From positions 858,820-922,819 of the forward strand of contig NZ_KB900617.1 in assembly GCF_000379025.1 (NCBI RefSeq): 64,000 nt of DNA, read 5' to 3'. A program made the translations under genes and the position numbers. A model generated the notes under the pieces. That model was not told the DNA's origin, did no database searches, and saw nothing but the letters and a program-made list of their open reading frames with translations. This document shows positions 16,887 to 55,434 of this stretch, one piece after another (positions within the stretch are counted from its first letter, which is position 1; each line of letters opens with the position of its first letter). The stretch is from Orenia marismortui DSM 5156. GTDB lineage: Bacteria > Bacillota > Halanaerobiia > Halobacteroidales > Halobacteroidaceae.

Positions 16887-19800
16887 TTACTTCATGCTAT
16901 TTCCTATTAACTTAAGACTTTCTCCTATCTGATTTAATTCTTGAATTACTTGTATTACATTTTGACCATCTTTTTCTGATTTTTTCTTAAGATATATCTC
17001 TTTTATCTCTTGCCATCTCTGCTGTTGTTCTTCTGTCATTCTATTACTGATCTCATAGAATTTCAACAAACTTGCTTCTGCTTCAGTTGCCAAAGTCTGA
17101 GCATCATTAATATAACTATTCTCTACTAATCCCTTGATTTCATTGTCATTCATAATTGGAACTACTTTTTCTACTATTTTGTTAATATTTCTATAAGAAC
17201 CTTGTAATTTAAATGGTGGTTCTGTTCTGTATTCATCACTTTGAGATGAGGAATAAATATACTCCATATTTACCTTCAAAATTTCATCTCTTATCTTCAG
17301 ACAGCTTTCTAATACACTTAAAGCCTCTTCTATTTCTTCCTCAGTATAGCTTCCATTTAAATCAATATCTCCCCTATCTCCAGTATCAATAGCTTGAATC
17401 AATTTATAAATATCTCCAGAATCTTTCATATAGATATTATTTAAGTAAGTATTTGAAGTAACAGCATTCTCTATATAACTGAGCTTAAAGGCCTCTTCAT
17501 TCTCCCTTAACATATCACCTAAGTTATAAACATCAGCTCTATTTGCTAACATATCAGGAATCTTAAACTTATCACCACTTTCAGTATAAGGATTTCCTGC
17601 CATTACCACAGCAACCTTCTTACCTCTAAACTCATAGGTCTTACTAACCCCATTATAAACACCTTCAATCTTTCTCTGCCCATCACACAAAGAGATAAAC
17701 TTCTGCAAAAATTCTGGGTTTGAATGCTGGATATCATCTAAATAAATCATTACATTATTTCCAAGTTCAAAGGCTAAATTTAATTTTTTCAACTCTTCTC
17801 TCGCCCCTGCATTTTTAGCTTCTGCTGGATCAAGAGAAGTAACACCATGACCAATTGTTGGACAGTTCACCTTGACTAACATCATACTCAATCTATTAGC
17901 AACATACTCCATTAGGGTAGTTTTACCATAACCTGGTGGAGATATCATTAGTAACATCCCCATGTTATCAGTTCTCTTATTCTTTCCTGCTGTACCTATC
18001 TGTTTTGCTAAATTATCACCGATTAAAGGTAGATAAACTTGGTCTATTAACTTACTTCTTACAAAGGAGGTTAAGACCTTAGGTTGTAAATCATTAAAAT
18101 TAATTTTATTTTTTATCTCTTCAATCTTAGCAAATTTTAATTGCTGGAATTTTTGATATTGTGGTATAATCTTATTTTTGAAATTATCTAACTTATGAAG
18201 AAAATCTATCAGATTAATTTGATATTTACCATTATCAATCACCTTATGAGTACCTACTAACTTATCTATAATCATTTCTGATTTTTTATTAATTGCTCGT
18301 CGATTGGAATAGTCACCTAAGATTAAACTCACTAAGACTTCATAGATATAGTCATTAAACTCTAACTCTTCTTCATATAAGTAAGATTGAACCCATTCAT
18401 TCACTAAAATATATCTTCCTTCTAAGTCATCACTTAAATTCTCTAAGGATTTTTTGAAGTCTTTTTTTCCTCCCTTTGAGATTAAAAAGTTATCAAAATT
18501 CTCATATATCTCTGCTGCTTCTACACTCAATACAAAAGTTTCATTCTGACTTATCTCTTTTGCTAAATATTCAGCAATTTTTTGATTATCATCAGTCTCT
18601 ATCCAGGGATTTTCATCTACAAAAGATTCTACCTCTTTAGCTAGACTTGGAATAAATCCTTCTATTAAGCCACGTTTAGAATATTTTGAGATCATATTTA
18701 CAGTCTTTAATCTATTTTGAAGCTTCTCTTTTCTTTCTTGAATTAAGCCAAATTGCCAAAATAAATTGGCTACAGCTCTAACTTTTGGGTTATAAGAAGC
18801 TAATTCTAACTCCCAATATATATTAACTAGAGTAGATAATATTTTATACGCATCATGATCATGAACACCTTTAGTATAATACTCATTAGAATGCTCTTGT
18901 ATATACTCTTTTATAATCCTATTTAAAGTCTGTTCATCTTTTTGATACAACTCTTCTAAAGAATTATTCTCTTGATAATTTTTAAAGATATTATATGCTA
19001 AAAACTCTCCTCGATATACTTCTTCATTTTCAGAGATAACTTTCTGGTCCCAAACCTCTTGATAATTGCTAAATTCTTCTGCATCTACCTGCTCCCAAAA
19101 GTCGGTACCAGAAATATGAAAATAGAATCCATCCTCTTTTTTAAGTAGACTAAGCTCAGGCTTTTGATTGTTTACAAGGAAATGATTATTCCCAAACTTA
19201 ATAGTATTCTCATCTAAGAATAGTTCCTTTTTATCCTTTAATTGCTTAATACTCGACTCTTTTAAAGACTTTAACTTATTTTCAATATCATCGGCTTTAG
19301 TACTATCACCAAGCTCTATCAACTGTTCTATAATATCTCTTATCTTATCTACCATAGGGCTAGTTGATAATAGTTCATTAATAGAACTTACTTCTTCAAA
19401 AGATTTTACCCTGTTTTTCAAACTTTTAAAGATTCTATCGGCAGCATTACTCAAAGAATCTATCTTTTTATTCTTCTTTTCAATTAATTGTTGCTTTTTG
19501 GACTCAAAGGTTGAGATTACTTCATCCCTTTTTTCAGTTAACATTACTAAAAATTCATCAAAATCAGAAAATTTACTTTCTAACTCATCAATCTGAACTA
19601 TTATTTTGGACATATAATCTTCGGTTTTTTCTACATTAGTAGATAAATCTAAATAGTTGGATACAGAATGAGTCAACAAATTCAGCTTGGAATAAAACTC
19701 CGCCTCTTTTTCTCTAGCATTCAAATTATCTATCTTATTCTTTAATTTAGATTTACTTTGATTCAAATTGGAAAAAAGCACAGAAATCTTATCGATTATC

Positions 19801-21773
19801 TCAGAAGTCTTAGTTGCATCTTCAATCTTTAAAGTATTTACTATATTAATTAGCATTTCTAATTCTTCTGATACTTTGACTATCTTTTGATTCAGTTCTT
19901 TTCCATCTACAAGCTTTTCAACTGTAGTTAAATTATTCTCTATGGACTTTACCTCTTCAATATAAGGATTTAAGCTTTCATCTTTGAGGAGAAAATTAGT
20001 ACAATCCAATGATAATTTATCATTCTTCTCTTTTATCTTTTTAGATAGATCTTCAACCTTCTTCTCATCAATAAATTGTAAATCCTTAAGTGCTGAGATC
20101 TCTCCTCTGACCTTTCTTATTTTAGTCAGATATTTTACAAAGTCATTGATATTTTCAAAGCTAGTATAGCCAATAGCTTTACTAATATCCTCGACCTTCT
20201 CTTTGACCTCATTATAGCTATTAGTTGTATTCTCTTTAATCTTAGTAACCTTATCAAACTCTTTAATCGCAATTGCCCCTGCTTCTTTAATTTTAAGCAG
20301 TGACTCTTTTATATTAAAGGCTTCCTTTTTGTCTAGCCAGAAATAATTATTGATAATATTTTCAGCATCTTTTACTATATCTACATATAAACCATAGTAG
20401 CTATCATCTTTTTGAGATAAGCTATAAAGCGAATAACAATCAGCCATCAATCTAACTATCTCTTTATTTCCGATATTATATAAGAATTCGTCCTTCTTCT
20501 CATCCTTTTCTTCTAATATATCTTTTACAAAGGAAGTCTGCCAAATTTGAATGGTATGATTTCTTTTAGGCTCTTGTCCTGCTTTAAAGATAATCAATTC
20601 TCCATTATCAAAATGTGAATATCCATTACAAATTATTGGCGTTTCAATATCTTGATGAATTATATTATAATTATGAATATAGTACTCTCCTGTTACTATA
20701 TCATAGAAGATATATTGATAGTCTTCACCATTTATAGAAGCTTTTTTATTTTGAAAGACTACATTCTGATAATCTACTTGAAATTTTTTAAAACCTCCTG
20801 CTTGTAAAAAGATACCATCAGGAAAGATTATTCCATGGTCTTCTGGCAATAAAACTACTGATTTTGCTATAGAATCTATCCGCTGTACTTCCTTCGTCTT
20901 CTCATTAAAGACAATATATCTATAATTCTCTTCTTGGTAGGGTTTTATCTTAAGTAAAATAAGATTTCCTACTATAGAATAGAAGATATCAGCATCATCA
21001 AGCTTTTGATCTTTTTGCTCTACTTCTTCTGCATAAATACCTTCTCCAGAATTTGTATTATCCTCTATCTTTAAGGTTAACGTCCCACCAATAGTTTCTA
21101 CAAATATACGATCTTCAATGGAAATATGGGGATGAAGACCAGCAACCTGGTCTTCTCTTGTAGTTATTTTCCATTCTATTTCTTGTTGGGTAGGATATAA
21201 AATCTCATGACTAAACCTATTACCCAAATACTCTATACTTTTATCTTCTTTGATTACCCATTTAAAACTCTTGATATCATCTACCTTATCTCCATTTTGA
21301 AAGACCATATAAATAAAATTATCTTTCTCATGAAATTTCGTAAAAAAACTATCTTTATAATATTTATACAACTCTTTAAAATCACTTTTAAATTGCTTAT
21401 CATTTAATAAAGAATAATCTTCACGAACAAATCTATCGCCATTATAAGTATATATAGAAAATACATCACTCAATTTACTTTCTGACTTTAATCCTAAGTG
21501 AACATTATATCCCAAAATAACTTTATTTCCTACTGGGACTATATCTCTAGGGATACAACTATTTTCTGTAACTATAGCTTCACTCTTCTTTAAGGTGTTT
21601 TTTATTTCGCCATATATCTCTATTCTCTTTTGATCTAATTTCTCTAATTTTTCTTTTAACTCTTTAGTTCTTTCAGTTAATCTATTTCTAATAACATTGT
21701 AAGAAGCAAAATTCTCCTGTTTTTTTTCTTGCTTAACTTCTTCCCCCATATCTATATCTATCCCCTTACCCAA
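16887..21773 (-). CDS. Giant (1628 aa) coiled-coil protein with a C-terminal AAA+ ATPase domain of AAA_5/MoxR-like type. The N-terminal roughly 500 aa is a beta-rich domain of unknown family.
   Basis: Walker A 'SPPGYGKTT'; Walker B-like 'VMIYLDDIQ'; sensor motif 'VVMAGNPY'. A heptad-like coiled-coil region of more than 600 aa precedes the ATPase. The start codon overlaps the flotillin stop by 8 bp. Confidence 0.7.
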   Translation of the reverse strand: MGKGIDIDMGEEVKQEKKQENFASYNVIRNRLTERTKELKEKLEKLDQKRIEIYGEIKNTLKKSEAIVTENSCIPRDIVPVGNKVILGYNVHLGLKSESKLSDVFSIYTYNGDRFVREDYSLLNDKQFKSDFKELYKYYKDSFFTKFHEKDNFIYMVFQNGDKVDDIKSFKWVIKEDKSIEYLGNRFSHEILYPTQQEIEWKITTREDQVAGLHPHISIEDRIFVETIGGTLTLKIEDNTNSGEGIYAEEVEQKDQKLDDADIFYSIVGNLILLKIKPYQEENYRYIVFNEKTKEVQRIDSIAKSVVLLPEDHGIIFPDGIFLQAGGFKKFQVDYQNVVFQNKKASINGEDYQYIFYDIVTGEYYIHNYNIIHQDIETPIICNGYSHFDNGELIIFKAGQEPKRNHTIQIWQTSFVKDILEEKDEKKDEFLYNIGNKEIVRLMADCYSLYSLSQKDDSYYGLYVDIVKDAENIINNYFWLDKKEAFNIKESLLKIKEAGAIAIKEFDKVTKIKENTTNSYNEVKEKVEDISKAIGYTSFENINDFVKYLTKIRKVRGEISALKDLQFIDEKKVEDLSKKIKEKNDKLSLDCTNFLLKDESLNPYIEEVKSIENNLTTVEKLVDGKELNQKIVKVSEELEMLINIVNTLKIEDATKTSEIIDKISVLFSNLNQSKSKLKNKIDNLNAREKEAEFYSKLNLLTHSVSNYLDLSTNVEKTEDYMSKIIVQIDELESKFSDFDEFLVMLTEKRDEVISTFESKKQQLIEKKNKKIDSLSNAADRIFKSLKNRVKSFEEVSSINELLSTSPMVDKIRDIIEQLIELGDSTKADDIENKLKSLKESSIKQLKDKKELFLDENTIKFGNNHFLVNNQKPELSLLKKEDGFYFHISGTDFWEQVDAEEFSNYQEVWDQKVISENEEVYRGEFLAYNIFKNYQENNSLEELYQKDEQTLNRIIKEYIQEHSNEYYTKGVHDHDAYKILSTLVNIYWELELASYNPKVRAVANLFWQFGLIQERKEKLQNRLKTVNMISKYSKRGLIEGFIPSLAKEVESFVDENPWIETDDNQKIAEYLAKEISQNETFVLSVEAAEIYENFDNFLISKGGKKDFKKSLENLSDDLEGRYILVNEWVQSYLYEEELEFNDYIYEVLVSLILGDYSNRRAINKKSEMIIDKLVGTHKVIDNGKYQINLIDFLHKLDNFKNKIIPQYQKFQQLKFAKIEEIKNKINFNDLQPKVLTSFVRSKLIDQVYLPLIGDNLAKQIGTAGKNKRTDNMGMLLMISPPGYGKTTLMEYVANRLSMMLVKVNCPTIGHGVTSLDPAEAKNAGAREELKKLNLAFELGNNVMIYLDDIQHSNPEFLQKFISLCDGQRKIEGVYNGVSKTYEFRGKKVAVVMAGNPYTESGDKFKIPDMLANRADVYNLGDMLRENEEAFKLSYIENAVTSNTYLNNIYMKDSGDIYKLIQAIDTGDRGDIDLNGSYTEEEIEEALSVLESCLKIRDEILKVNMEYIYSSSQSDEYRTEPPFKLQGSYRNINKIVEKVVPIMNDNEIKGLVENSYINDAQTLATEAEASLLKFYEISNRMTEEQQQRWQEIKEIYLKKKSEKDGQNVIQVIQELNQIGESLKLIGNSMK

Positions 21774-23805
21774 TTATTGATTTTATTGGATCATTTTCTA
21801 CTCCAAGTTCTTTAGCTTTATCTAAGATCTTAGTTATAGCTGTGCTTGGAGTGCCATTAGAATCATCCATATATTTCATTATAGCACTAGAAATTGTAAG
21901 GTTCTTTATTGCTTCAGTATCAACATTAAAACTATTGATTAAAGTTTTTAACTGCTTTTGAAAATTATCTATATCTCCATTAAAAAATGTATCCTTTACA
22001 TCGGTTAAGACATTAGAATTATTAACCAATCTATCAACTTGCTTTCCAGCACTAATTGAATTTATTAGCTTATCAAAGAAGATTGAGTCTCCACCAACGA
22101 TATCAACATTAGCATTCTTCAATCCGTCTTTCATTATTTCTGCTTGTGCCCTTGCTATCTCTGCTTTAATACCTATCTCTGCTAGTTCTACTTCCTTATC
22201 CTTATTTAGTTTTAATTTAAACTCTTCATGCTCTTTTCCTACAGAATCCAACTTTTTCATTGCTTCTGCTTTTCTGTTAATTCCTTCAGCTTCTGCTAAT
22301 GCCTTTTCTCTAGTTACTTGTGCTTCTGATTCACCTTTAACTTTAATTGCTTTAGCTTCTGCTGCTGCTTGCATCTCTTCAACTTTAGCTTTTGAAGCAC
22401 CTTCTGCTTCAAAGGCCTCTGCCTGTGCTTTCATTACTCTAGAATCAGAGATTCCTTGTACTGAAGCTTCCTCTGCCTTAGCATCTGCCATAATCTTAAT
22501 AGACTCAGCCTTCTTATGGGAGGTCTTTAGTTCAGTATCTGCCATTATAACCTCTTTTTCAGCTAATTCTTGAGCACTTTGTTTTTCTGCCTCAGCAAGT
22601 TTGATCTTGTCAATTGCCTTAACTTCTGCATCACTTTCAGCCTTTGTAACATTTACCTGCTTATCTCTATTAGCCTGAGCTATCTCTATAGTATCCTTTA
22701 TCTTCTCTTCTTCCTCTGCTACTGATTTCTCAACCATTACTCTTTCTCTAACTACTTCTTGCATACTCTTCTTCTCTTTTTCTAAATCCTTTTCCTTAGC
22801 TATTTTGGCAAGAGAAACTACTTTCTCTCGTTCTGTTCTTTCTATTTCTGTCTCTTTTTGTGCTCTTTCTTGTTGTACAGATTCTGTTCCTTCTTTGGAT
22901 ACTCTAGCAATAATTATCTGTCTATCTTTATTCTCTTCAGCAATTGAAATCTCTTCATCAGTCTTGATTCTTGTTCTTTCTGCTTTTAATCGCTCTTCCT
23001 CTTCTACAATTTTTATTTGAGAATTTTCTCTAGATTTCATATTAGCTATTTCTCTCTTTTGCTTCTCTTCTGCTTCAGTCTGCTGTCTTTCCAATTCTAA
23101 AACAGCCTCTCTGGCACTTACATCTTGTTTAACAATTGTCTTCTCTTTATTTCTTTTAATTTCATTTGATTTCATTGCCTGAGTTGCAGTTAATTCAATA
23201 ATCTTTTTAATACCTTCTGAGTCAAGTACATTATTCTCATCTAAATTCTCTACCTTTGTCTGTTCTAAATAATCAATGGCAGCATCATCTAATACATAAC
23301 CATTAAGATCAGTTCCTATCACTTGAAGAATCTCTTCTTTAAAAGTATCTCTTTCAGTATAAAGTTGCGTAAATTCAAATTTCTTTCCAACTGTTTTTAA
23401 AGCTTCTGAAAATTTAGCATCAAAAAATTCCATTAAAGTAGCAGTATCAGATGCTTTTTTAGTTCCTAAAGATTTAGCAACTCTTAGTACATCCTTCTCT
23501 GTATGATTTACCCTTACAAAGAAAGCTACCTTGATATCGGCTCGTAAATTATCTTTACATATCAGTCCAGCTTTGCCACTTCTCTCGATCTCTACCTTTT
23601 TAATAGATACATCCATCTTCTCCCAATGGTGCAATATCGGAATAATCCAGGTTCCAGTAAAGGAGACCTTTGACCCTCCAATTCCATTCTTTACAATAGC
23701 AGTTCCTTGATCTACTTTCTTATAAAATAGTGTTAATAATATAGGAAAGGCTATAAAAATTAAAAAGGCCACTCCTCCAACAACATATAATATCATTTTT
23801 AACAT
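21766..23805 (-). CDS. floT: Flotillin-like SPFH/band-7 protein (FloT/YqiK family, 679 aa).
   Basis: N-terminal TM helix; SPFH domain '...RADIKVAFFVRVNHTEKDVLRVAKSLG...'; long Glu/Ala/Lys-rich flotillin coiled coil. Confidence 0.8.
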   Translation of the reverse strand: MLKMILYVVGGVAFLIFIAFPILLTLFYKKVDQGTAIVKNGIGGSKVSFTGTWIIPILHHWEKMDVSIKKVEIERSGKAGLICKDNLRADIKVAFFVRVNHTEKDVLRVAKSLGTKKASDTATLMEFFDAKFSEALKTVGKKFEFTQLYTERDTFKEEILQVIGTDLNGYVLDDAAIDYLEQTKVENLDENNVLDSEGIKKIIELTATQAMKSNEIKRNKEKTIVKQDVSAREAVLELERQQTEAEEKQKREIANMKSRENSQIKIVEEEERLKAERTRIKTDEEISIAEENKDRQIIIARVSKEGTESVQQERAQKETEIERTEREKVVSLAKIAKEKDLEKEKKSMQEVVRERVMVEKSVAEEEEKIKDTIEIAQANRDKQVNVTKAESDAEVKAIDKIKLAEAEKQSAQELAEKEVIMADTELKTSHKKAESIKIMADAKAEEASVQGISDSRVMKAQAEAFEAEGASKAKVEEMQAAAEAKAIKVKGESEAQVTREKALAEAEGINRKAEAMKKLDSVGKEHEEFKLKLNKDKEVELAEIGIKAEIARAQAEIMKDGLKNANVDIVGGDSIFFDKLINSISAGKQVDRLVNNSNVLTDVKDTFFNGDIDNFQKQLKTLINSFNVDTEAIKNLTISSAIMKYMDDSNGTPSTAITKILDKAKELGVENDPIKSIIG

Positions 23806-48535: not shown

Positions 48536-49740
48536 TCATTGTAAAATCAAATTGAACAAAATAAAAATAGCCATAGGGCACCAACCTGTAATATAATTAA
48601 ATCACCACAAAATAACCAGTTACAGGAGGGTGCACACTATGACTTACTTAAATGATACACCAAAATCCCGAAAAAATAAACACCTAAATGCTTATGAACG
48701 TGGTCAAATTGCATTATTACATTCCGAAGGAATGAATCCAAATGCTATTGCAAAACGTTTAGGTAGAGCTTCTAATACCATTAGAAACGAACTAAAACGT
48801 GGTACAGTTTCTCAAATTAAAGCTAATAAAAAGATTATGGTCTATTACCCTGACACTGGTCAAAGAGTTTATGAATCTAATCGCAAGAATTGTGGTCCTA
48901 AATTTAAACTTTTGCAATGTGAAGAGTTCATTGATTATGTTATAGAACAGTTCTACGAAAAAGGACATTCTCTTGATGCTATATGTGGTGCAGCAAAACT
49001 TCATAATAAATTTCCAAAGCCAGAGATGGTATCTACTAAAACGCTTTATAACTACGTCAACGCTGGATTATTGACAATTAAAAACATTGATTTACCTTTG
49101 AAGCTTAAGCGTTCTTCAAAAAGAAAGCACACTAAAAATAATAAAAAGAAGCTTGGTACAAGTATAGATCAACGCCCTGAAAGTATTAATAATCGTAGTG
49201 AGTTTGGTCACTGGGAAATTGACACTATGATAGGCAAAAAGACTAAAAATGAATCAGTTTTACTTACTATGACAGAACGTATGACTCGTAAAGAAATTAT
49301 TCGTAAAATCCCTGCCAAGACTGCTCAAGCAGTTCAAGATGCTATTTTAAAGCTCGTTAATGAAGCAGGAGATTGTTTTTCCAAAGTATTTAAAAGCTTC
49401 ACTTGTGATAATGGCTCTGAGTTTGCTCAAATGTCATTTTTAGAGCAAATTAGTGATACTAAAGTATACTTTGCACATCCATATTCATCATGGGAAAGAG
49501 GAACTAATGAGCGTCATAATGGTCTTATAAGACGCTTTATCCCTAAAGGTAATAGTCTAAACCAATTCTCTATTGAATCTATTGCTAGAGTCCAAAACTG
49601 GTGCAATACTTTACCAAGAAAAATCTTAGATTACCTAACCCCTGATGAAATATTTGAAGATAAATTAAAACAAATTCTTTATGACTAAATAACCAAATTA
49701 TTACAGTTTGAAAATGTTCAATTTATTATTGCAATTTAAG
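48536..49740 (+). mobile_element. IS30-family insertion sequence, copy 1 (about 1.2 kb), with imperfect terminal inverted repeats around 'AAATTGAAC'.
   Basis: The ends align with copy 2 at 54227-55434: 'ttcattgtaaaatcaaattgaac...' versus '...gttcaatttattattgcaatttaag'. Confidence 0.8.
48630..49688 (+). CDS. IS30-family transposase (352 aa).
   Basis: N-terminal HTH 'YERGQIALLHSEGM'; DDE core carrying the IS30 signature 'GHWEIDT...CDNGSEF...WERGTNE'. Confidence 0.9.
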   Translation: MHTMTYLNDTPKSRKNKHLNAYERGQIALLHSEGMNPNAIAKRLGRASNTIRNELKRGTVSQIKANKKIMVYYPDTGQRVYESNRKNCGPKFKLLQCEEFIDYVIEQFYEKGHSLDAICGAAKLHNKFPKPEMVSTKTLYNYVNAGLLTIKNIDLPLKLKRSSKRKHTKNNKKKLGTSIDQRPESINNRSEFGHWEIDTMIGKKTKNESVLLTMTERMTRKEIIRKIPAKTAQAVQDAILKLVNEAGDCFSKVFKSFTCDNGSEFAQMSFLEQISDTKVYFAHPYSSWERGTNERHNGLIRRFIPKGNSLNQFSIESIARVQNWCNTLPRKILDYLTPDEIFEDKLKQILYD

Positions 49741-50002
49741 AAATTTTTATAAATTAAATCTATTTTTAAAATAAGTCTATAGTTTTAAATTTAATTAACT
49801 TTTCATATTTATATTACAGATTAAATTATTACTTTCTATTTAGTTCTTATTTAAGAAAACTAATAGAAACATTTATCTAATAATATTTACTCTCTATAAT
49901 TTTTAGCTATTAGACTATATTTAAAGGCTAAGGTTATAAAAAATAGCCATAAGAAAAAATTACAAGTATTAAATATTTTATTTGGATAATCCTAATAAAA
50001 AC

Positions 50003-50047
50003 CCAATATGTAGTGTTATCTTCTATTTATTACACTATATATAGTTC
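50003..50047 (+). promoter_or_regulatory. Two candidate NrdR boxes, 'ccaatatgtagtgtta' and 'acactatatatagttc', upstream of nrdD.
   Basis: Both resemble the NrdR palindrome acaCwAtATaTwGtgt. They are about 29 bp apart centre to centre and overlap the promoter. Confidence 0.45.
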
Positions 50048-50055
50048 TAAAGTGT

Positions 50056-50084
50056 TTGACAGATAAATCTAAATGAGATAAAAT
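50056..50084 (+). promoter_or_regulatory. Sigma-A-type promoter for nrdDG: TTGACA, a 17-bp spacer, then TAAAAT.
   Basis: The -35 box is at 50056-50061 and the -10 box at 50079-50084, about 35 bp upstream of the nrdD ATG. Confidence 0.6.
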
Positions 50085-50118: not shown

Positions 50119-52152
50119 ATGATTAATAGGTACATACAAAAGAGGGATGGTAGAAAGGTTCCTTTCAAAAAAGACAAGATTCAAGAAGCTGTTAATAAAG
50201 CAGCTAAAGCAGTTGGAGTAGAATCAGATATTATTGGTGAAGAAATTAGCCAAGAGGTAATATCTTATTTAAATATCTTCTTTAAAGGTGAAGGTATACC
50301 AACTGTAGAACAGGTACAAGATTTAGTTGAAAAGATTTTAATTGAAAAAGGATATGCTGCTATAGCTAAAGCTTATATCCTATACAGAGAACAACATGCT
50401 AAATTAAGAGATACAAAACAATTATTTGGTGATGCTATAGAAACTATAGAAAACTATTTAGATCGTAGTGATTGGAAGGTAAATGAGAATAGTAATATGG
50501 GATATTCTTTACAGGGGTTAAATAATCATATTGCTTCTGAAATCACTGCTCAATACTGGTTACAAGAGATCTATCCTCAAGAAATTAGAGATAAACACTT
50601 ATCAGGTGATATGCATATCCATGATTTAAGTAATTTAAGTGTTTATTGTTGTGGATGGGACCTAAAAGACTTACTATTAAGTGGTTTTGGGGGGGTTTCT
50701 ACTAAAGTAGAAAGTAAACCACCTAAACACTTTAGAACAGCTTTATTACAGGCAGTAAACTTTTTCTATACATTACAAGGAGAAAGTGCTGGAGCTCAAG
50801 CCTTTTCTAGTTTTGACACATATTTAGCTCCTTTTATCCATTATGATAAGCTAACTTACAAACAAGTTAAACAGGCTATGCAGGAGTTTATTTTTAACTT
50901 AAATGTTCCTACCAGGGTAGGTTTCCAAACTCCTTTTACAAATATAACTATGGACTTAATTTGTCCAAATATTATAGCTGATGAACCAGTAATTATTGGT
51001 GGAGAAGCTCAAGATAAGACTTATAAAGAATTCCAAAAAGAAATGGACATGCTTAATAAGGCTTTTGCAGAGATTATGTTAGAGGGTGATTCCAAAGGCA
51101 GAGTATTTAGTTTTCCTATTCCAACCTATAACATTACAAAAGACTTTGATTGGGATAAAGAAATTCTAGAGCCTGTTTGGGAAATGACTGCTAAGTATGG
51201 TATCCCATATTTCAGCAACTTTGTTAACTCAGATATGAAACCTGATGATGTTAGAAGTATGTGTTGTCGTCTAAGACTTGATAATACTGAACTAAGAAAA
51301 CGTGGTGGAGGATTATTTGGAGCTAATCCAATGACAGGAAGTATCGGGGTTGTTACCTTAAATATGCCACGTATTGGTTATCTAGCCGAAGATGAAGAAG
51401 ATTTCATTAAGCGTACCTATGAATTAATGGATTTAGCCCAAGAAAGTTTAGAAATTAAAAGAAAGATTCTGGAAAGATTAACTGATAAAGGTTTATACCC
51501 TTACAGTCAATTTTATTTAAGAAATGTTAAATTACGCTTTGATGAATATTGGAAGAATCACTTCAATACTATTGGTTTAAATGGTATGAATGAAGCAACT
51601 ATTAATTTCCTTGGTGAAGATATTACTCATCCCGAAGCTAAAGAATTTGCTATTAGAATAATGGATGCTATGCGTGATAAATTGGTAGAGTATCAAGAAA
51701 GAACAGGTAATATTTATAACTTAGAAGCTACTCCTGCTGAAGGTACTTCGTATAGATTTGCTAGTTTAGATAAGCAAGAATTTGGAAATGAGATTATCTG
51801 TGCTAATGAAGATAGAGTTTTAAATGAAGATGCAGATCCTTATTATACTAACTCTACTCAAATACCTGTAGGATATACTGATGATATCTTTGAAAGTTTA
51901 GAGTTACAGGATCAACTACAAAAGCGTTATACTGGAGGAACTGTTCTTCATGGATTTATTGGAGAGAAGATGCCTTCTACTCAAAGTACTAAATTATTAG
52001 TTAAAAGGATTGCAGATAACTTTGAATTACCATACTATTCAATTACTCCAACCTTTAGCGTCTGTCCTACTCATGGATATTTGGCTGGAGAACATGAATA
52101 TTGTCCTAAATGTGATGCTGAAATAGAATATGAGAAAGAAGATACTGCTTAA
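50119..52152 (+). CDS. nrdD: Anaerobic ribonucleoside-triphosphate reductase (class III) lacking the C-terminal glycyl-radical segment. It ends right after the Zn-ribbon.
   Basis: N-terminal ATP-cone 'IQKRDGRKVPFKKDKI'; NrdD core; C-terminal 'CPTHGY...CPKCD' Zn-ribbon. No RVxGY motif occurs before the stop. Confidence 0.9.
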   Translation: MINRYIQKRDGRKVPFKKDKIQEAVNKAAKAVGVESDIIGEEISQEVISYLNIFFKGEGIPTVEQVQDLVEKILIEKGYAAIAKAYILYREQHAKLRDTKQLFGDAIETIENYLDRSDWKVNENSNMGYSLQGLNNHIASEITAQYWLQEIYPQEIRDKHLSGDMHIHDLSNLSVYCCGWDLKDLLLSGFGGVSTKVESKPPKHFRTALLQAVNFFYTLQGESAGAQAFSSFDTYLAPFIHYDKLTYKQVKQAMQEFIFNLNVPTRVGFQTPFTNITMDLICPNIIADEPVIIGGEAQDKTYKEFQKEMDMLNKAFAEIMLEGDSKGRVFSFPIPTYNITKDFDWDKEILEPVWEMTAKYGIPYFSNFVNSDMKPDDVRSMCCRLRLDNTELRKRGGGLFGANPMTGSIGVVTLNMPRIGYLAEDEEDFIKRTYELMDLAQESLEIKRKILERLTDKGLYPYSQFYLRNVKLRFDEYWKNHFNTIGLNGMNEATINFLGEDITHPEAKEFAIRIMDAMRDKLVEYQERTGNIYNLEATPAEGTSYRFASLDKQEFGNEIICANEDRVLNEDADPYYTNSTQIPVGYTDDIFESLELQDQLQKRYTGGTVLHGFIGEKMPSTQSTKLLVKRIADNFELPYYSITPTFSVCPTHGYLAGEHEYCPKCDAEIEYEKEDTA

Positions 52153-52167
52153 GAGAGGTTGTTTATA

Positions 52168-52860
52168 ATGAAAATTTCTGGATTACAAAGGACAAGTTTA
52201 ATTGATTACCCTGAACATATTACTACTATAGTCTTTACTCAAGGTTGTAATTATAAATGTCCTTATTGTCATAATCCTAGTTTGATAGCTAATTCATCTC
52301 CTGATGAAAGTTATCTACCTTTAAAAGATTTTTGGCAATTTATAGATAAGAGAAAAGAATTAATTGATGCAGTTACTATTACAGGTGGAGAACCAACATT
52401 ACAAAAAGGACTAATAGATTTTATTAAAGATATCAAAAAAAATGGTTTAAAAATAAAACTTGACAGTAATGGAAGTAACTTTAAAACCTTAAAAAGAATA
52501 ATTGAAGCTAACTTAGTTGATTATATAGCAATGGATGTTAAAGCTCCTTTAGATAAACATTCAAAGATTACTAAGAACCTAAACACAAAAGAAATATCTA
52601 AAAGTATTAATCTAATCAAAGATTCAACTATAGATTATGAGTTTAGGACAACAGTAGTTCCAAGTATTCATTCTAAACTTGATATTAAGGAGATTGGAAA
52701 GCTAATTTCAGGAGCTAAACGCTACTACATCCAAAACTTCCGACCAATTAATACTTTAGATAAAAAATTGAAAGGTGTTACTCCTTTTCCACCTGCTAAA
52801 TTAGAGGAATTTAAAGATATAATTTTACCTTATGTTCAAGAAGTTCAAATTCGTAATTAA
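52168..52860 (+). CDS. nrdG: Anaerobic ribonucleotide reductase activating protein (radical SAM).
   Basis: Motif 'CNYKCPYCHNP' (CxxxCxxC) and the SD 'aagagagg' 9 nt upstream of the ATG. Confidence 0.85.
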   Translation: MKISGLQRTSLIDYPEHITTIVFTQGCNYKCPYCHNPSLIANSSPDESYLPLKDFWQFIDKRKELIDAVTITGGEPTLQKGLIDFIKDIKKNGLKIKLDSNGSNFKTLKRIIEANLVDYIAMDVKAPLDKHSKITKNLNTKEISKSINLIKDSTIDYEFRTTVVPSIHSKLDIKEIGKLISGAKRYYIQNFRPINTLDKKLKGVTPFPPAKLEEFKDIILPYVQEVQIRN

Positions 52861-52881
52861 AATTACAAGGAGGAGATAAAT

Positions 52882-53028
52882 ATGAAACAAGATCAAAACA
52901 GACAAAAATGTGAAGTATATTCTCGAGTAGTTGGTTTTTTAACTCCAGTAAGTCAATGGAATCGCGGAAAAAAAGAAGAATGGATAGATAGAAAGACTTA
53001 TGATAAAGCATTAAAAGAGGCTAATTAA
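52882..53028 (+). CDS. Stand-alone 48-aa ORF encoding the NrdD C-terminal glycyl-radical motif (MKQDQNRQKCEVYSRVVGFLTPVSQWNRGKKEEWIDRKTYDKALKEAN).
   Basis: 'RVVGFL...WNRGKKEE' matches the class III RNR glycyl-radical loop (RVCGYL...WNxGKxxE). An SD 'aaggaggag' lies 7 nt upstream. The ORF is below the track threshold. Confidence 0.5.
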   Translation: MKQDQNRQKCEVYSRVVGFLTPVSQWNRGKKEEWIDRKTYDKALKEAN

Positions 53029-53053
53029 ATTTAATAATTGATAAATATAAAAA

Positions 53054-53086
53054 AGCAGTTGAGAAAATCCTCAACTGCTTTTTTAT
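53054..53086 (+). terminator. Rho-independent terminator 'agcagttgag-aaaatc-ctcaactgct' followed by T6.
   Basis: Direct reading of the sequence. It lies downstream of the small glycyl-radical ORF. Confidence 0.75.
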
Positions 53087-53201
53087 CTCTCATCTCTCAT
53101 CTCTCATCTCTCATCTCTCATCTCTCATCTCTCATCTCTCATCTCTCATCTCTCATCTCTCATCTATTATCTATTATCTATTATCTATTATCTATTATCT
53201 A
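53086..53201. repeat. Two adjacent heptanucleotide microsatellites, (TCTCTCA)x11 then (TCTATTA)x5.
   Basis: Direct reading of the sequence. They lie between the convergent nrdDG-small-ORF unit and pfkA. Confidence 0.95.
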
Positions 53202-53205
53202 TCCT

Positions 53206-54180
53206 TCAATAACAAAGCATCTTAGTTAATTCATAATTTTTAGTATTAAACTTCTTCTTATCGCTATTAACTACTTTTAAATCTACAGCTTTTACAACAT
53301 TATTTCTAACCCCTACCATCTTAGAACTTTCTCCTTTAACTAATTGATTAACAGCTTCTGCCCCTAACTTACTTCCCAATACTCTATCAAATGCCGTTGG
53401 ACGTCCTCCTCGTTGTTGATGGCCTAATAGTGTCTCTCTCACTTTAAATCCTAGCCTCATCTCTAACTCTCTACTAATCTCATCAACCTTACCTACACCT
53501 TCAGCCATTAAGATGATTCCATAATTTTTACCCAGCTCAAACTTTCTTTTTAAATTAGCAGAGATTTGATCATAATCTACCTCTTGCTCTGGAATCAATA
53601 AAGCATCTACACTTCCTGCTAAAGTTGAAGTCATAGCAATCTCTCCTGAATGACGCCCCATCACTTCTATTACAAAAACCCGTGGGGTACTACCTACTAA
53701 AGCTGTTGCTGTGTCTAAAATTCTATCAACAGTTTCAGTTACAATATTACAAGCAGTATCAAAACCAATAGCATAATCGGTTCCAGTAATATCATTATCG
53801 ATAGTACCAGGAACCCCCATAACCTTAATTCCTGCTTCAGATAATTTCTGGGCACCTTTCATTGAACCATTACCACCTATAACTACCAGCCCATCTAATT
53901 CTAAATTTTTAATATTATCTAGTGCTTTATTAAACCCTTCTTTCCTTTGAAACTCTTTAGTTCTTCCAGTCTTGATTATAGTCCCACCATAACTGACAAT
54001 CTCTTCTACATCTAATATATCTAAGTTTCTATATCTTCCCTCTAACAATCCTATATATCCTGCTTCTATTCCTATAACTTCTAAATTATGATATGTACCA
54101 GCTTTTACTACAGCTCGCAAGGTAGCATTCATCCCTGGAGCATCTCCTCCACTTGTTAAAACTCCAATCTTTTTCATCAT
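53206..54180 (-). CDS. pfkA: ATP-dependent 6-phosphofructokinase. The catalytic motif reads GGNGS rather than the canonical GGDGS.
   Basis: 'GGDAPGMNA', 'PGTIDND' and 'MGR' motifs; 324 aa. Confidence 0.9.
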   Translation of the reverse strand: MMKKIGVLTSGGDAPGMNATLRAVVKAGTYHNLEVIGIEAGYIGLLEGRYRNLDILDVEEIVSYGGTIIKTGRTKEFQRKEGFNKALDNIKNLELDGLVVIGGNGSMKGAQKLSEAGIKVMGVPGTIDNDITGTDYAIGFDTACNIVTETVDRILDTATALVGSTPRVFVIEVMGRHSGEIAMTSTLAGSVDALLIPEQEVDYDQISANLKRKFELGKNYGIILMAEGVGKVDEISRELEMRLGFKVRETLLGHQQRGGRPTAFDRVLGSKLGAEAVNQLVKGESSKMVGVRNNVVKAVDLKVVNSDKKKFNTKNYELTKMLCY

Positions 54181-54226
54181 GCACCCCCTGAATTTAATTT
54201 TACCTTTATCTATTTTTTTATTCTTA

Positions 54227-55434
54227 CTTAAATTGCAATATTAAATTGAACTAGTTTCAAACTGTAATAATTTGGTTAATTAGTTATATAGAATTTCTCT
54301 TAGTTGATCTTCAAAAGCTTCATCAGGAGTTAGGTATCCTAAAATTTTTCTTGGTAGAGTATTACACCAGTTTTGAACTCTAGCAATAGATTCAATAGAG
54401 AATTCACTTATACTTCTGCCTTTAGGTATAAAACGTCTTATGAGACCATTATGACGTTCATTGGTACCTCTTTCCCATGATGAATAGGGATGAGTAAAAT
54501 ATACTTTTGTATCAACTATTTCTTCTATAACACCTAGCTCTGAAAATTCAGAGCCATTATCGCAGGTAAAGCTTTTAAATACAGTAGAAAAAAGCTCTCC
54601 AGAGTCTTTGATTAGTTTTAATATAGCATTTTGAACAGATTCAGCTGTTTTACCAGGAATTTTACGAATGATTTCTTTACGAGTCATGCGCTCTGTCATA
54701 GTGAGTAAAACTTCATCATTTTTATTCTTTTTACCAATAACAGTGTCAATTTCCCAATGCCCAAATTCACTGCGATCATTAATATTTTCAGGGCGTTCAT
54801 CGATACTTGTGCCAAGTTTCTTTTTATTACGCTTAAGACATTTTGATTTTGAAGAACGTTTAAGCTTCAATGGCAAATCAATATTGCTAATCTGAAGTAG
54901 TCCAAGATCTATATAGTTATATAGAGTTTTAGTGCATACCATCTCTGACTTTGAGAATTTGTTATGCAGCTTTGCTGCACCACAAATAGAATCAAGAGAT
55001 TGTTTATGCTCGCAAAATAACTCTATAACATAATCAATGAATGTTTCACATTCTAAAAGCTTAAATTTCGGTCCGCAATTTTTACGATTAGATTCATAAA
55101 CTTTTTGACCAGCGTCAGGGAAGTAAATCTCTACAGTTTTATTGCCTTTAATTTGGGAAACTGTACCACGCTTTAACTCGTTTCTAATTGTATTAGAAGC
55201 TCTACCTAGACGTTTTGCAATAGCATAAGGCGACATTCCTTCGGAATGTAACAATGCAATTTGACCACGCTCATAAGCATTTAGGTGTTTATTTTTTCGG
55301 GATTTTGGTGTATCATTTAAGTAGTCCATAGTGTGCACCCTCCTGTAATTTTTTGTTTTGTGGTGATTCAATTATATTACAGTTTGGTCCACTATGGGCA
55401 TTTTTTTATTAGTTCAATTTAATTATACAATCAA
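54227..55434 (-). mobile_element. IS30-family insertion sequence, copy 2. It is inverted relative to copy 1 and diverged from it.
   Basis: Terminal sequences align with copy 1. The transposase is about 85% identical by eye. Confidence 0.8.
54280..55329 (-). CDS. IS30-family transposase. The start is taken at 'MDYLNDTPKS', which aligns with the copy 1 start.
   Basis: Same HTH and DDE motifs as copy 1. Confidence 0.9.
   Translation of the reverse strand: MDYLNDTPKSRKNKHLNAYERGQIALLHSEGMSPYAIAKRLGRASNTIRNELKRGTVSQIKGNKTVEIYFPDAGQKVYESNRKNCGPKFKLLECETFIDYVIELFCEHKQSLDSICGAAKLHNKFSKSEMVCTKTLYNYIDLGLLQISNIDLPLKLKRSSKSKCLKRNKKKLGTSIDERPENINDRSEFGHWEIDTVIGKKNKNDEVLLTMTERMTRKEIIRKIPGKTAESVQNAILKLIKDSGELFSTVFKSFTCDNGSEFSELGVIEEIVDTKVYFTHPYSSWERGTNERHNGLIRRFIPKGRSISEFSIESIARVQNWCNTLPRKILGYLTPDEAFEDQLREILYN

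What the first reader, a model, noticed from the sequence alone, without database searches (positions are those of the whole stretch)
50119..53028. Class III ribonucleotide reductase with its glycyl-radical segment encoded by a separate 48-aa ORF downstream of nrdG
The 677-aa NrdD ORF has the ATP cone, the catalytic core and the C-terminal Zn-ribbon ('CPTHGY...CPKCD'), but it stops 11 codons later without the universally conserved glycyl-radical loop (RVxGY). After nrdG there is a small ORF with a good SD (52882-53028) that encodes exactly that loop: 'KCEVYSRVVGFLTPVSQWNRGKKEEWIDRKTYD'. Its first residues ('QKCEVY') even echo the nrdD end ('CPKCDAEIEY'). This could be a two-piece NrdD in which the radical domain is supplied in trans. 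That would be analogous to the GrcA/YfiD spare-part glycyl-radical protein that rescues oxygen-damaged pyruvate formate-lyase. Alternatively it is a rearrangement scar, with nrdG inserted into the nrdD 3' end, and therefore a non-functional nrdD. I do not recall either situation being described for NrdD.
Basis: partly seen in the sequence, partly recalled or inferred. Interest (0 to 1): 0.65.

Follow-up and report, generated by a model that had tools for sequence, protein, structure and literature searches.

The report
Two-piece anaerobic ribonucleotide reductase operon
In this bacterium (Orenia marismortui) the short loop that carries the glycyl radical of the anaerobic DNA-precursor enzyme is made as a separate 48-residue protein; many other anaerobes do the same, and I found no paper that describes it.

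Summary
The operon is nrdD (50119-52152, 677 aa), nrdG (52171-52860) and a 48-aa ORF (52882-53028). The large protein covers Pfam NRDD positions 1-532 of 562 and T. maritima NrdD residues 101-609. The small ORF covers positions 529-562 and residues 610-646, so its Gly18 sits on the radical Gly621. The two pieces are exactly complementary.

It is not a scar or a misassembly. All 120 closest NrdD homologues (71% identity or more) lack the radical loop. The same gene triplet occurs in the Halothermothrix orenii genome and a Jonquetella chromosome. The small ORF is under purifying selection (dN 0.14-0.25, dS near or at saturation). The same cut also occurs with the order nrdD-small ORF-nrdG in CPR bacteria, DPANN archaea, Thermoplasmatales and Elusimicrobia. 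It arose more than once: all-split monophyly had 0/100 bootstrap support.

Best reading: a two-subunit class III ribonucleotide reductase. NrdG puts the radical on the small chain, which then docks into the barrel of the large chain. A replaceable-cartridge role after oxygen damage is plausible but only inferred.

A 2026 review states that spare-part proteins are known only for formate lyases. I rate this a new variant of a known kind.

The parts
50001..50047 (+). Two NrdR-box-like 16-mers (50001-50016 and 50032-50047, starts 31 bp apart) just upstream of the promoter
   Evidence: each has 2 mismatches to ACACWATATATWGTGT. The count over the whole window is not significant (3 found, 2 expected). 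The argument rests on position and spacing only, and the consensus is recalled from memory.
50056..50084 (+). Sigma-70-like promoter, TTGACA-17-TAAAAT (11 of 12 matches)
   Evidence: It is a consensus match only.
50119..52152 (+). nrdD large chain, 677 aa. It has the ATP-cone (aa 5-94), the catalytic barrel with Cys177/Cys178 and finger-loop Cys382/Cys383, the Zn ribbon C649/H652/C662/C665 and an acidic 12-residue tail. It has no glycyl-radical loop.
   Evidence: AlphaFold2 model pLDDT 78. The best Foldseek matches are class III RNR structures, TM 0.6-0.74.
52063..52113 (+). Zn-ribbon coding segment (C649-P-T-H652 ... C662-P-K-C665), the last conserved element before the cut
   Evidence: C649, H652, C662 and C665 are invariant in 41 homologues. 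The His position is Cys in some relatives (L058, L067, L080), as expected for a metal ligand.
52171..52860 (+). nrdG, the radical-SAM activase (229 aa from the ATG; an alternative TTG start lies at 52159)
   Evidence: TIGR02495 NrdG2, 213.7 bits against a cut-off of 131. Pfam Radical_SAM and Fer4_12.
52868..52873 (+). Shine-Dalgarno AGGAGG of the small ORF, 8 nt before its ATG
   Evidence: Read directly from the sequence.
52882..53028 (+). Small glycyl-radical chain, 48 aa: MKQDQNRQKCEVYSRVVGFLTPVSQWNRGKKEEWIDRKTYDKALKEAN. The predicted radical site is Gly18 (codon 52933-52935). Cys10 is conserved.
   Evidence: There are 118 clusters of stand-alone homologues. A profile search found 5110 hits, and the best 150 cluster representatives are all 42-174 aa. 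dN/dS is 0.2 or lower where it could be computed.
53047..53086 (+). Hairpin with a U-tract right after the small ORF, a likely intrinsic terminator that closes the three-gene operon
   Evidence: -22.7 kcal/mol, z = -8.3 against shuffles. The consensus scan did not list it. My guess is that the A/U runs pair and extend the stem.

Best explanation
The operon nrdD-nrdG-small ORF encodes a class III (glycyl-radical) ribonucleotide reductase whose catalytic polypeptide is naturally split into two chains. The 677-aa chain carries the ATP-cone, the ten-stranded barrel with the finger-loop cysteines, and the Zn ribbon. The 48-aa chain is the radical loop plus the C-terminal tail of a normal NrdD.

Shown here:
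- The two ORFs are complementary to the residue.
- The split is conserved in a whole clade and has arisen more than once.
- Both pieces and the activase are co-transcribed neighbours, and the small ORF is under purifying selection.

Inferred:
- NrdG abstracts the hydrogen of Gly18 on the small chain, either free or docked.
- The chain inserts its loop into the barrel so that Gly18 faces Cys383, and catalysis then proceeds as in single-chain NrdD.
- The acidic tail of the large chain and the basic head of the small chain help the two ends meet.
- A likely pay-off is cheap repair. Oxygen cleaves glycyl-radical enzymes at the radical glycine, so here only a 48-residue chain would be lost and the 677-residue chain could be reloaded.
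For: Complementarity:
- Pfam NRDD positions 1-532 against 529-562.
- PRK08270 positions 4-652 against 648-683.
- T. maritima NrdD residues 101-609 against 610-646, with Gly18 aligned to Gly621.

Conservation:
- None of the 120 closest large-chain homologues has RVxG[YF] in its last 60 residues.
- There are 118 clusters of stand-alone small homologues, named from Orenia, Halothermothrix, Halocella, Jonquetella, Aminobacterium, Pyramidobacter and Thermovirgaceae.
- The same nrdD-nrdG-small ORF triplet occurs in Jonquetella CM001376 and Halothermothrix orenii CP001098 and in 8 further genomes.
- A second arrangement, nrdD-small ORF-nrdG, is cut at the same junction in 22 loci. In the 20 whose junction I could read, the small ORF has its own start codon (or overlaps the nrdD stop, L029), the nrdD stop is TAA in 16, the two ORFs lie in all three relative frames, and the spacers run up to about 200 nt.

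Selection and phylogeny:
- dN is 0.14-0.25 with dS at 0.9 or above or saturated.
- Type A monophyly 100/100. A split Thermoplasmatales enzyme sits inside a fused clade 100/100. All-split monophyly 0/100.

Signs of an active enzyme:
- Cys177/178, Cys382/383 and the Zn ligands are invariant in 41 homologues.
- The fold prediction matches class III RNRs.
- The cognate activase is in the operon.
- The large-chain tails have median net charge -4 (97% negative, n=118). The small-chain heads have median +2 (80% positive, n=216).

From the literature:
- The radical domain of P. copri NrdD is mobile and becomes fully disordered in the dATP-bound state (PMC11226230).
- Oxygen cleaves glycyl-radical enzymes at the radical glycine, and the small protein GrcA restores activity to oxygen-cleaved PFL in trans (PMC13450708).
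Against: - There is no experimental evidence here: no protein detection, no EPR and no activity assay.
- The residue after the radical Gly is Phe here and in about half of the small chains. PMC11226230 describes a highly conserved Tyr at that position that bonds to the substrate network, so the details of catalysis may differ.
- The repair advantage is pure inference. The fissions could be selectively neutral.
- Whether Orenia has another ribonucleotide reductase elsewhere in its genome is unknown. None is among the eight large ORFs I scanned in this 64-kb window.
Confidence: 0.8

Rival explanations
1. Rearrangement scar: nrdG (or a piece of DNA) was inserted into the 3' end of nrdD, so nrdD is dead and the small ORF is a remnant.
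For: The gene order nrdD-nrdG-remnant is what an insertion would leave. IS30-family copies flank the locus.
Against: The arrangement is shared by a whole clade at 71-99% identity and by distant phyla. The small ORF keeps its start codon and Shine-Dalgarno and evolves under purifying selection while synonymous sites are near or at saturation. The catalytic and Zn residues of the large chain are invariant. The same cut exists without nrdG in between.
Confidence: 0.02
2. Spare part for another enzyme: the small protein is a GrcA-like rescue factor for a separate full-length NrdD elsewhere in the genome, and the truncated NrdD has some other role, for example regulatory.
For: Orphan NrdD-type radical-domain genes with no nrdD or nrdG nearby do exist in Desulfobacterota and in viral contigs. 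A trans-acting role is therefore plausible for the wider family.
Against: In the window's clade the small ORF always sits in the operon of a loop-less NrdD. The two pieces add up exactly to one enzyme. The large chain retains every catalytic residue. None of the eight large ORFs I scanned in the window is a second RNR, but the rest of the genome was not available.
Confidence: 0.06
3. The two chains are joined after translation (split intein or other ligation), or the split is bypassed by recoding, so the mature enzyme is a single chain.
For: Inteins are common inside the large chains of this clade (PF14528 and PF14890 in many homologues).
Against: A 229-aa gene lies between the pieces, so readthrough or frameshifting cannot join them. 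The large tail (median 13 residues) and the small head (median 11 residues) are very short to hold split-intein halves (my judgement from general knowledge). Pfam finds no intein domain in either ORF. In the other arrangement the two ORFs lie in all three relative frames and most nrdD genes end in TAA.
Confidence: 0.02
4. The split is real and functional but selectively neutral. Fission at a flexible linker is simply tolerated and gives no repair or regulatory benefit.
For: Fused and split enzymes are interleaved in the tree. The linker between CPxC and CEVY varies from 2 to about 30 residues in fused enzymes, which fits a permissive site.
Against: The cut recurs at one junction. The split forms have persisted for a long time under selection. 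The two new ends have acquired opposite charges. Orphan and phage-borne copies exist. Together these hint at a use for a detachable radical chain, but none of them is decisive.
Confidence: 0.3

Closest known systems
Canonical single-chain class III ribonucleotide reductase NrdD with activase NrdG (phage T4, E. coli, T. maritima, P. copri, S. thermophilus)
   Same: The ATP-cone, barrel, finger-loop cysteines, Zn ribbon, RVxG[YF] radical motif, C-terminal tail and NrdG partner are all present and alignable.
   Different: The polypeptide is cut about 12 residues after the last Zn ligand and 17 residues before the radical Gly. The radical loop and tail form a separate 48-aa gene product, here encoded after nrdG. 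The residue after the radical Gly is Phe, not Tyr.
GrcA/YfiD and phage T4 Y06I (vs.6), the autonomous glycyl-radical spare parts for pyruvate formate-lyase
   Same: It is a small stand-alone protein that carries a glycyl-radical loop, is presumably activated by the enzyme's own activase, and acts in trans on a large barrel protein.
   Different: GrcA is a PFL-type Gly_radical (PF01228) domain of about 127 aa that rescues an enzyme which normally has its own loop. The Orenia protein matches only the NrdD family, is 48 aa, and is obligatory because the large chain has no loop. A 2026 review states that spare parts are known only for formate lyases (PMC13450708).
Split class II ribonucleotide reductase NrdJa/NrdJb (Pseudomonas aeruginosa, some phages)
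   Same: It is an RNR catalytic chain encoded by two consecutive ORFs that must associate (PMC4520616 title; PMC9669993).
   Different: In NrdJ the second chain carries the IscU-like and Zn-finger domains, not the radical. NrdJ uses adenosylcobalamin and has no protein radical store.
Intron-, intein- or homing-endonuclease-interrupted nrdD genes of phages
   Same: nrdD appears as more than one coding piece (PMC3653736).
   Different: According to that paper most of those interruptions are self-splicing introns or inteins, and the cause of one fragmented nrdD (Aeromonas phage phiAS4) is unknown. I take it from general knowledge that splicing restores a single chain. Here there is no intron or intein at the junction, and a whole gene separates the pieces.
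Class I ribonucleotide reductase alpha/beta
   Same: Conceptually, the radical is stored on a separate small subunit that docks onto the catalytic subunit.
   Different: The proteins and the chemistry are unrelated: a ferritin-like metallo-subunit with a tyrosyl radical and long-range radical transfer.

Membership tests
Class III ribonucleotide reductase (NrdD) | Sequence membership of the catalytic chain (Pfam NRDD, NCBIfam NrdD equivalogs) | tested here: met
   PF13597, 634 bits. PRK08270, 1067 bits against a cut-off of 548. TIGR02487, 538 bits against 326.
Class III ribonucleotide reductase (NrdD) | Barrel fold with a finger-loop cysteine facing the radical loop | tested here: met
   Cys383 (and Cys382) aligns with the P. 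copri finger-loop Cys (PMC11226230). The AlphaFold2 model matches class III structures with TM 0.6-0.74. Confidence in the finger loop itself is low.
Class III ribonucleotide reductase (NrdD) | C-terminal Zn ribbon | tested here: met
   C649, H652, C662 and C665 are invariant in 41 homologues. Metal binding itself was not tested.
Class III ribonucleotide reductase (NrdD) | Glycyl-radical motif RVxG[YF] on the same polypeptide | tested here: not met
   The motif is absent from the large chain. It is present as RVVGF on the separate 48-aa chain. The enzyme meets this feature only as a two-chain assembly.
Class III ribonucleotide reductase (NrdD) | Cognate radical-SAM activase NrdG encoded alongside | tested here: met
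   TIGR02495 NrdG2, 213.7 bits against a cut-off of 131.
Class III ribonucleotide reductase (NrdD) | Glycyl radical formed, and NTP reduced to dNTP | not testable with these tools
   This needs EPR and an enzyme assay.
GrcA/YfiD autonomous glycyl-radical cofactor | PFL-type Gly_radical domain (PF01228) | tested here: not met
   At E up to 1 the small ORF matches only PF13597 NRDD.
GrcA/YfiD autonomous glycyl-radical cofactor | Stand-alone small protein that carries the radical glycine | tested here: met
   It is a 48-aa ORF with its own Shine-Dalgarno and ATG and has 118 stand-alone homologue clusters.
GrcA/YfiD autonomous glycyl-radical cofactor | Rescues an enzyme that normally has its own radical domain after oxygen cleavage | tested here: not met
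   The partner large chain never has a radical loop in this clade. The small chain is therefore a constitutive subunit, not a spare.
Split RNR (NrdJa/NrdJb type) | Catalytic chain encoded by two ORFs of one operon | tested here: met
Split RNR (NrdJa/NrdJb type) | Class II (cobalamin) enzyme with homology to NrdJ | tested here: not met
   The full-length matches above their cut-offs are class III models. The class II and class I models match only the ATP-cone region (residues 4-135), far below their cut-offs.

The most novel reading that the evidence does not exclude
NrdD-type glycyl-radical loops form a widespread family of detachable radical cartridges.

- In split enzymes such as Orenia's, the cartridge is the obligatory radical subunit and can be swapped after oxygen damage.
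- The unlinked proteins of about 116 aa (Zn ribbon plus loop) in Desulfobacterota would be true GrcA-like spare parts for class III RNR.
- The many orphan copies on viral contigs, one of them next to an NrdG-like activase, would let phages keep the host's anaerobic dNTP supply running, or take it over.

This would extend the spare-part principle from formate lyases to ribonucleotide reduction.
Probability: 0.3. Interest if true: 0.85.

Novelty: new variant of a known kind. Interest (0 to 1): 0.72.

Why it matters
Class III ribonucleotide reductase is the textbook single-chain glycyl-radical enzyme, and it is often discussed as close to the ancestral RNR. A natural version whose radical loop is a free peptide of about 50 residues matters in four ways.

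1. It shows that the loop can be supplied in trans. This has been demonstrated only for pyruvate formate-lyase with GrcA.
2. It offers a simple system for studying how the activase recognises and activates the loop, and how the loop enters the barrel.
3. It makes the idea of cheap repair after oxygen exposure directly testable for DNA-precursor synthesis in anaerobes. These include the Halanaerobiales, the Synergistota, and the CPR and DPANN lineages with their small genomes.
4. It flags a practical annotation problem. The small ORFs are labelled as whole reductases, 'hypothetical' or 'uncharacterized'. Surveys that filter by length (400-1100 residues in PMC9531940) would drop the small ORF and would not see that the large chain lacks its radical loop.

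Tried and rejected
- **Complex model.** I tried an AlphaFold2 model of an artificial large-linker-small fusion to look at docking. I modelled the large chain alone instead. That model only confirms the fold, and its low-confidence flap and finger loop cannot be interpreted with a 41-sequence alignment.
- **RNA elements.** An Rfam scan of 48-56 kb found nothing.
- **Terminator scan.** The consensus scan missed the hairpin after the small ORF. Folding showed it.
- **Readthrough, frameshift or altered genetic code at nrdD-small ORF junctions.** Rejected because most nrdD genes end in TAA, the two ORFs lie in all three relative frames, and the small ORFs have their own starts.
- **Split intein.** Rejected.
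- **Cys10 as a fourth Zn ligand supplied in trans.** Not supported for this clade, because the large chain already has four ligand positions with Cys/His interchange. It may hold for the separate 'MAKCG...' group.
- **Locus L086.** It looked like a full NrdD plus a spare loop, but it is a scaffold with an N gap and I did not use it.
- **Literature.** Six full-text searches and ten papers gave no description of a split NrdD radical domain. The library lacks most subscription-journal papers, so this is not proof of absence.
Full report
**1. What is in the sequence**

Three co-oriented genes lie between two IS30-family copies.
- nrdD: 50119-52152, 677 aa.
- nrdG: 52171-52860.
- A small ORF: 52882-53028, 48 aa.

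The gaps between the genes are 18 and 21 nt. The small ORF has an AGGAGG Shine-Dalgarno 8 nt before its ATG. A sigma-70-like promoter (TTGACA-17-TAAAAT) lies at 50056-50084. Two NrdR-box-like sites precede it. A strong hairpin with a U-tract follows the small ORF at 53047-53086 (-22.7 kcal/mol, z = -8.3). The three genes therefore look like one transcription unit. The small protein is 100% identical to a protein that NCBI records for Orenia marismortui.

**2. The two ORFs add up to exactly one NrdD**

| Reference | Large ORF | Small ORF |
|---|---|---|
| Pfam NRDD (562 positions) | ATP-cone plus 1-532 | 529-562 (E 5e-9, above the gathering score) |
| NCBIfam PRK08270 (684 positions) | 4-652 | 648-683 |
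| T. maritima NrdD (PDB 4COI) | residues 155-666 on 101-609 | residues 7-42 on 610-646 |

Counting along the 4COI alignment puts Gly18 of RVVGF on Gly621.

The large chain keeps Cys177/178, the finger-loop Cys382/383 and the Zn ribbon C649/H652/C662/C665. All of these are invariant in 41 homologues. An AlphaFold2 model of the large chain alone (pLDDT 78) matches class III RNR structures with TM 0.6-0.74. The cut therefore falls after the Zn ribbon and 17 residues before the radical glycine.

**3. It is conserved, so it is not a scar or an assembly error**

- None of the 120 closest large-chain homologues (71-99% identity) has an RVxG[YF] motif near its C-terminus. Those with a source name come from Halanaerobiales, Synergistota and unclassified Bacillota genomes. 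Apart from one partial sequence they share the CPxHGY...CPxC motif followed by a short, mostly acidic tail.
- The small ORF has 118 clusters of stand-alone homologues of 41-83 aa.
- A profile of these small proteins, searched against 1.84 billion cluster representatives, found 5110 hits. The best 150 are all 42-174 aa.
- The identical triplet nrdD-nrdG-small ORF is present in the Jonquetella chromosome CM001376 and in Halothermothrix orenii CP001098. It is also present in eight further species genomes.
- Between Orenia and these relatives the core of the small ORF has dN 0.14-0.25, while synonymous sites are near or at saturation (dS 0.9 or above). dN/dS was 0.2 or lower in the five comparisons where it could be computed.

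**4. The same cut exists in a second gene order and arose more than once**

A scan of species-representative genomes gave four situations.
- **Type A:** nrdD-nrdG-small ORF (Halanaerobiales, Synergistota, Bacillota).
- **Type B:** nrdD-small ORF-nrdG (Saccharibacteria, Dojkabacteria and other CPR bacteria, DPANN archaea, a Thermoplasmatales genome, Elusimicrobia, a Thermotogae genome).
- **Type C:** ordinary fused NrdD, mostly 704-750 aa, followed by nrdG.
- **Type D:** orphan small ORFs.

I could read the junction in 20 of the 22 type B loci. The small ORF has its own start codon, or overlaps the nrdD stop (L029). The nrdD stop is TAA in 16 of the 20. The two ORFs lie in all three relative frames. 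The spacers run up to about 200 nt. This excludes frameshift errors, readthrough and code reassignment.

In a neighbour-joining tree of 51 NrdD sequences:
- type A is monophyletic (100/100 bootstrap);
- a split Thermoplasmatales enzyme sits inside a clade of four fused ones (100/100);
- all split enzymes never form one clade (0/100).

Fission at this junction has therefore happened repeatedly, or fission and re-fusion have both occurred. Fused relatives read CPxHGY...CPxC-x(2-12)-C-EVYSRVVGY. The cut lies in a linker of variable length. The Cys of 'KCEVY' is an ordinary conserved position and not a duplicated Zn ligand.

**5. How it most likely works**

*Shown:* complementarity, co-location with the activase, conservation and retained catalytic residues.

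*From the literature:* in P. copri NrdD the radical domain comprises the Zn site, the buried Gly loop and a tail that crosses the barrel top. It is highly mobile and completely disordered in the dATP-bound state (PMC11226230). Glycyl-radical enzymes are cleaved at the radical glycine by oxygen. For PFL, the small protein GrcA restores activity after that cleavage (PMC13450708).

*Inferred:*
- NrdG installs the radical on Gly18 of the 48-aa chain.
- The loop enters the barrel of the large chain opposite Cys383.
- The C-terminal part of the small chain lies over the barrel top, as in fused enzymes.

One new observation supports a physical pairing of the new ends. Large-chain tails are acidic (median net charge -4, 97% negative, n=118). 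Small-chain heads are basic (median +2, 80% positive, n=216).

A plausible benefit is that oxygen damage destroys only a 48-residue chain. This is not shown, and neutral fission at a permissive linker remains a serious alternative for why the split exists.

**6. Rivals**

- **A scar or pseudogene** is excluded by sections 3 and 4.
- **Misassembly** is excluded by the independent genomes.
- **Joining of the chains by an intein or by recoding** does not fit: the tail and head are very short, Pfam finds no intein domain, and a whole gene lies in between.
- **A spare part for another, full-length NrdD** is unlikely for this clade. The small ORF always accompanies a loop-less NrdD and completes it exactly. 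The rest of the Orenia genome could not be searched, and none of the eight large ORFs I scanned in the window is a second RNR.

**7. Comparison with what is known**

It is a class III RNR by every sequence and fold criterion except one: the radical motif is on a second polypeptide.

It works like GrcA/YfiD in that a small protein supplies a glycyl-radical loop in trans. It is not a member of that family, because it gives no PF01228 match. It is also not a spare, because the partner never has its own loop.

The closest precedent among RNRs is the split class II enzyme NrdJa/NrdJb (PMC9669993; PMC4520616 title). There the second chain carries the IscU-like and Zn-finger domains, not a radical.

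Split nrdD genes reported in phages are described mostly as intron or intein interruptions, with one fragmentation of unknown cause (PMC3653736).

[quoted passage not shown] A 2022 analysis of RNR C-terminal extensions, as far as I read it, treats the class III radical domain as part of the catalytic chain. I found no paper that describes this split. The library searched lacks most subscription journals. Public annotation labels many of the small ORFs as whole reductases, and Pfam, NCBIfam and PHROGs have no dedicated family for them.

**8. Verdict**

It is a new variant of a known kind of enzyme. It is widespread in genomes and, as far as I could find, unstudied.

- Confidence that it is a functional two-chain reductase: about 0.8.
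- Confidence that the split serves repair or regulation, and is not neutral: about 0.4.

**9. Beyond the finding**

The family of free NrdD-type radical loops is larger than the split operons.
- Desulfobacterota carry an unlinked, monocistronic protein of about 116 aa with a Zn ribbon plus the loop. It has 464 clusters, and no nrdD or nrdG lies within 10 kb.
- Among the best 80 viral-contig loci, 70 hold a small loop ORF with no NrdD or NrdG hit within 5 kb.
- One phage-like contig has an NrdG-like activase next to such an ORF.

These are candidates for true NrdD spare parts and deserve their own study.

Noticed in passing
L033 4276-4626; also L020, L023, L025, L032, L043, L090 10001-10354, L091: Desulfobacterota carry a monocistronic protein of about 116 aa. 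It has a short N-terminal segment, a CHDC...KCDxC Zn ribbon and an NrdD-type radical loop (CEVYSRVVGYLRPV). There are 464 clusters at E 1e-5 or better. No nrdD or nrdG lies within 4.5 kb (L020-L043) or within the 6-10 kb held for L090 and L091. It is a candidate GrcA-like spare part for class III RNR.
   Followed up: partly
Viral loci L092-L171 (IMG/VR): 70 of the best 80 viral-contig matches are small ORFs (open frames of 41-264 codons) that encode an NrdD-type radical loop, with no NrdD or NrdG hit within 5 kb. Many share an N-terminal 'NGDLxLDNGxxIPAxKR' motif. PHROGs has no family of its own for them.
   Followed up: partly
L088 4172-5186 and L089: A phage-like contig has an NrdG-like radical-SAM gene (231 aa), a 35-aa basic ORF and a 61-aa radical-loop ORF in a row. 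No nrdD lies in the 5 kb upstream.
   Followed up: partly
L005 4684-4833: A 49-aa radical-loop ORF (MKCGAETEVYSRVVGY...) sits alone inside a Mu-like prophage region (a Gam gene is nearby) of a Lentisphaerae bin. Its neighbours have no Pfam match.
   Followed up: partly
P0102, P0105-P0109, P0111-P0113, P0116, P0117; L086 3150-3560: A group of small loop proteins starts 'M[AP]KCG..TEVYSRV.GY', that is, inside the second Zn knuckle. In L086 the preceding ORF ends '...HGYIPGNHPCCP' plus a short tail. In this group the fourth Zn ligand may come from the small chain. L086 is a scaffold with an N gap, so this is uncertain.
   Followed up: partly
window 48558-49759 and 54208-55410: Two IS30-family elements (transposases of 352 and 363 aa; arms 82-85% complementary) lie in inverted orientation. 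They bracket about 4.4 kb that holds nrdD-nrdG-small ORF and pfkA (53206-54180, minus strand). This may be a composite mobile unit.
   Followed up: partly
window 53085-53205: A heptamer microsatellite, (TCTCATC)n changing to (TCTATTA)n, lies between the operon terminator and the end of pfkA. It creates a spurious 63-aa ORF (53038-53229).
   Followed up: no
window 52117-52152 and 52882-52911; homologues P0001-P0381: The new chain ends carry opposite charges. Large-chain tails have median net charge -4 (97% negative). Small-chain heads have median +2 (80% positive). Split large chains of both gene orders often share a 'CPxC-D-A-E-x-G-Y' tail motif.
   Followed up: partly
window 52936-52938 (Phe19 of the small ORF): The residue after the radical Gly is Phe here and in 111 of 216 small loop proteins. 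Fused relatives are almost all Tyr. The literature describes this Tyr as highly conserved and bonded to the substrate and flap network.
   Followed up: no
window 52909-52911 (Cys10 of the small ORF): The Cys before EVYSRV is conserved in 176 of 216 small proteins and in most fused relatives, but it is Val in T. maritima NrdD. The Zn site appears complete without it, so its role is unknown.
   Followed up: partly
window 50001-50016 and 50032-50047: Two NrdR-box-like palindromes, 31 bp apart, lie directly upstream of the -35 element. They suggest NrdR control of the split operon. The consensus was recalled from memory, and the window-wide count is not significant.
   Followed up: partly
Homologues P0127, P0136, P0139, P0174, P0189, P0204, P0221 and others: Many large-chain homologues of this clade are 850-1130 aa and carry intein or LAGLIDADG domains (PF14890, PF14528). 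Inteins are therefore frequent in these split NrdDs, but they are not at the split junction.
   Followed up: no
window 21766-23805 (minus strand): A 679-aa ORF has no Pfam match at E 1e-5 or better. It lies next to a 1628-aa ORF (16887-21773).
   Followed up: no
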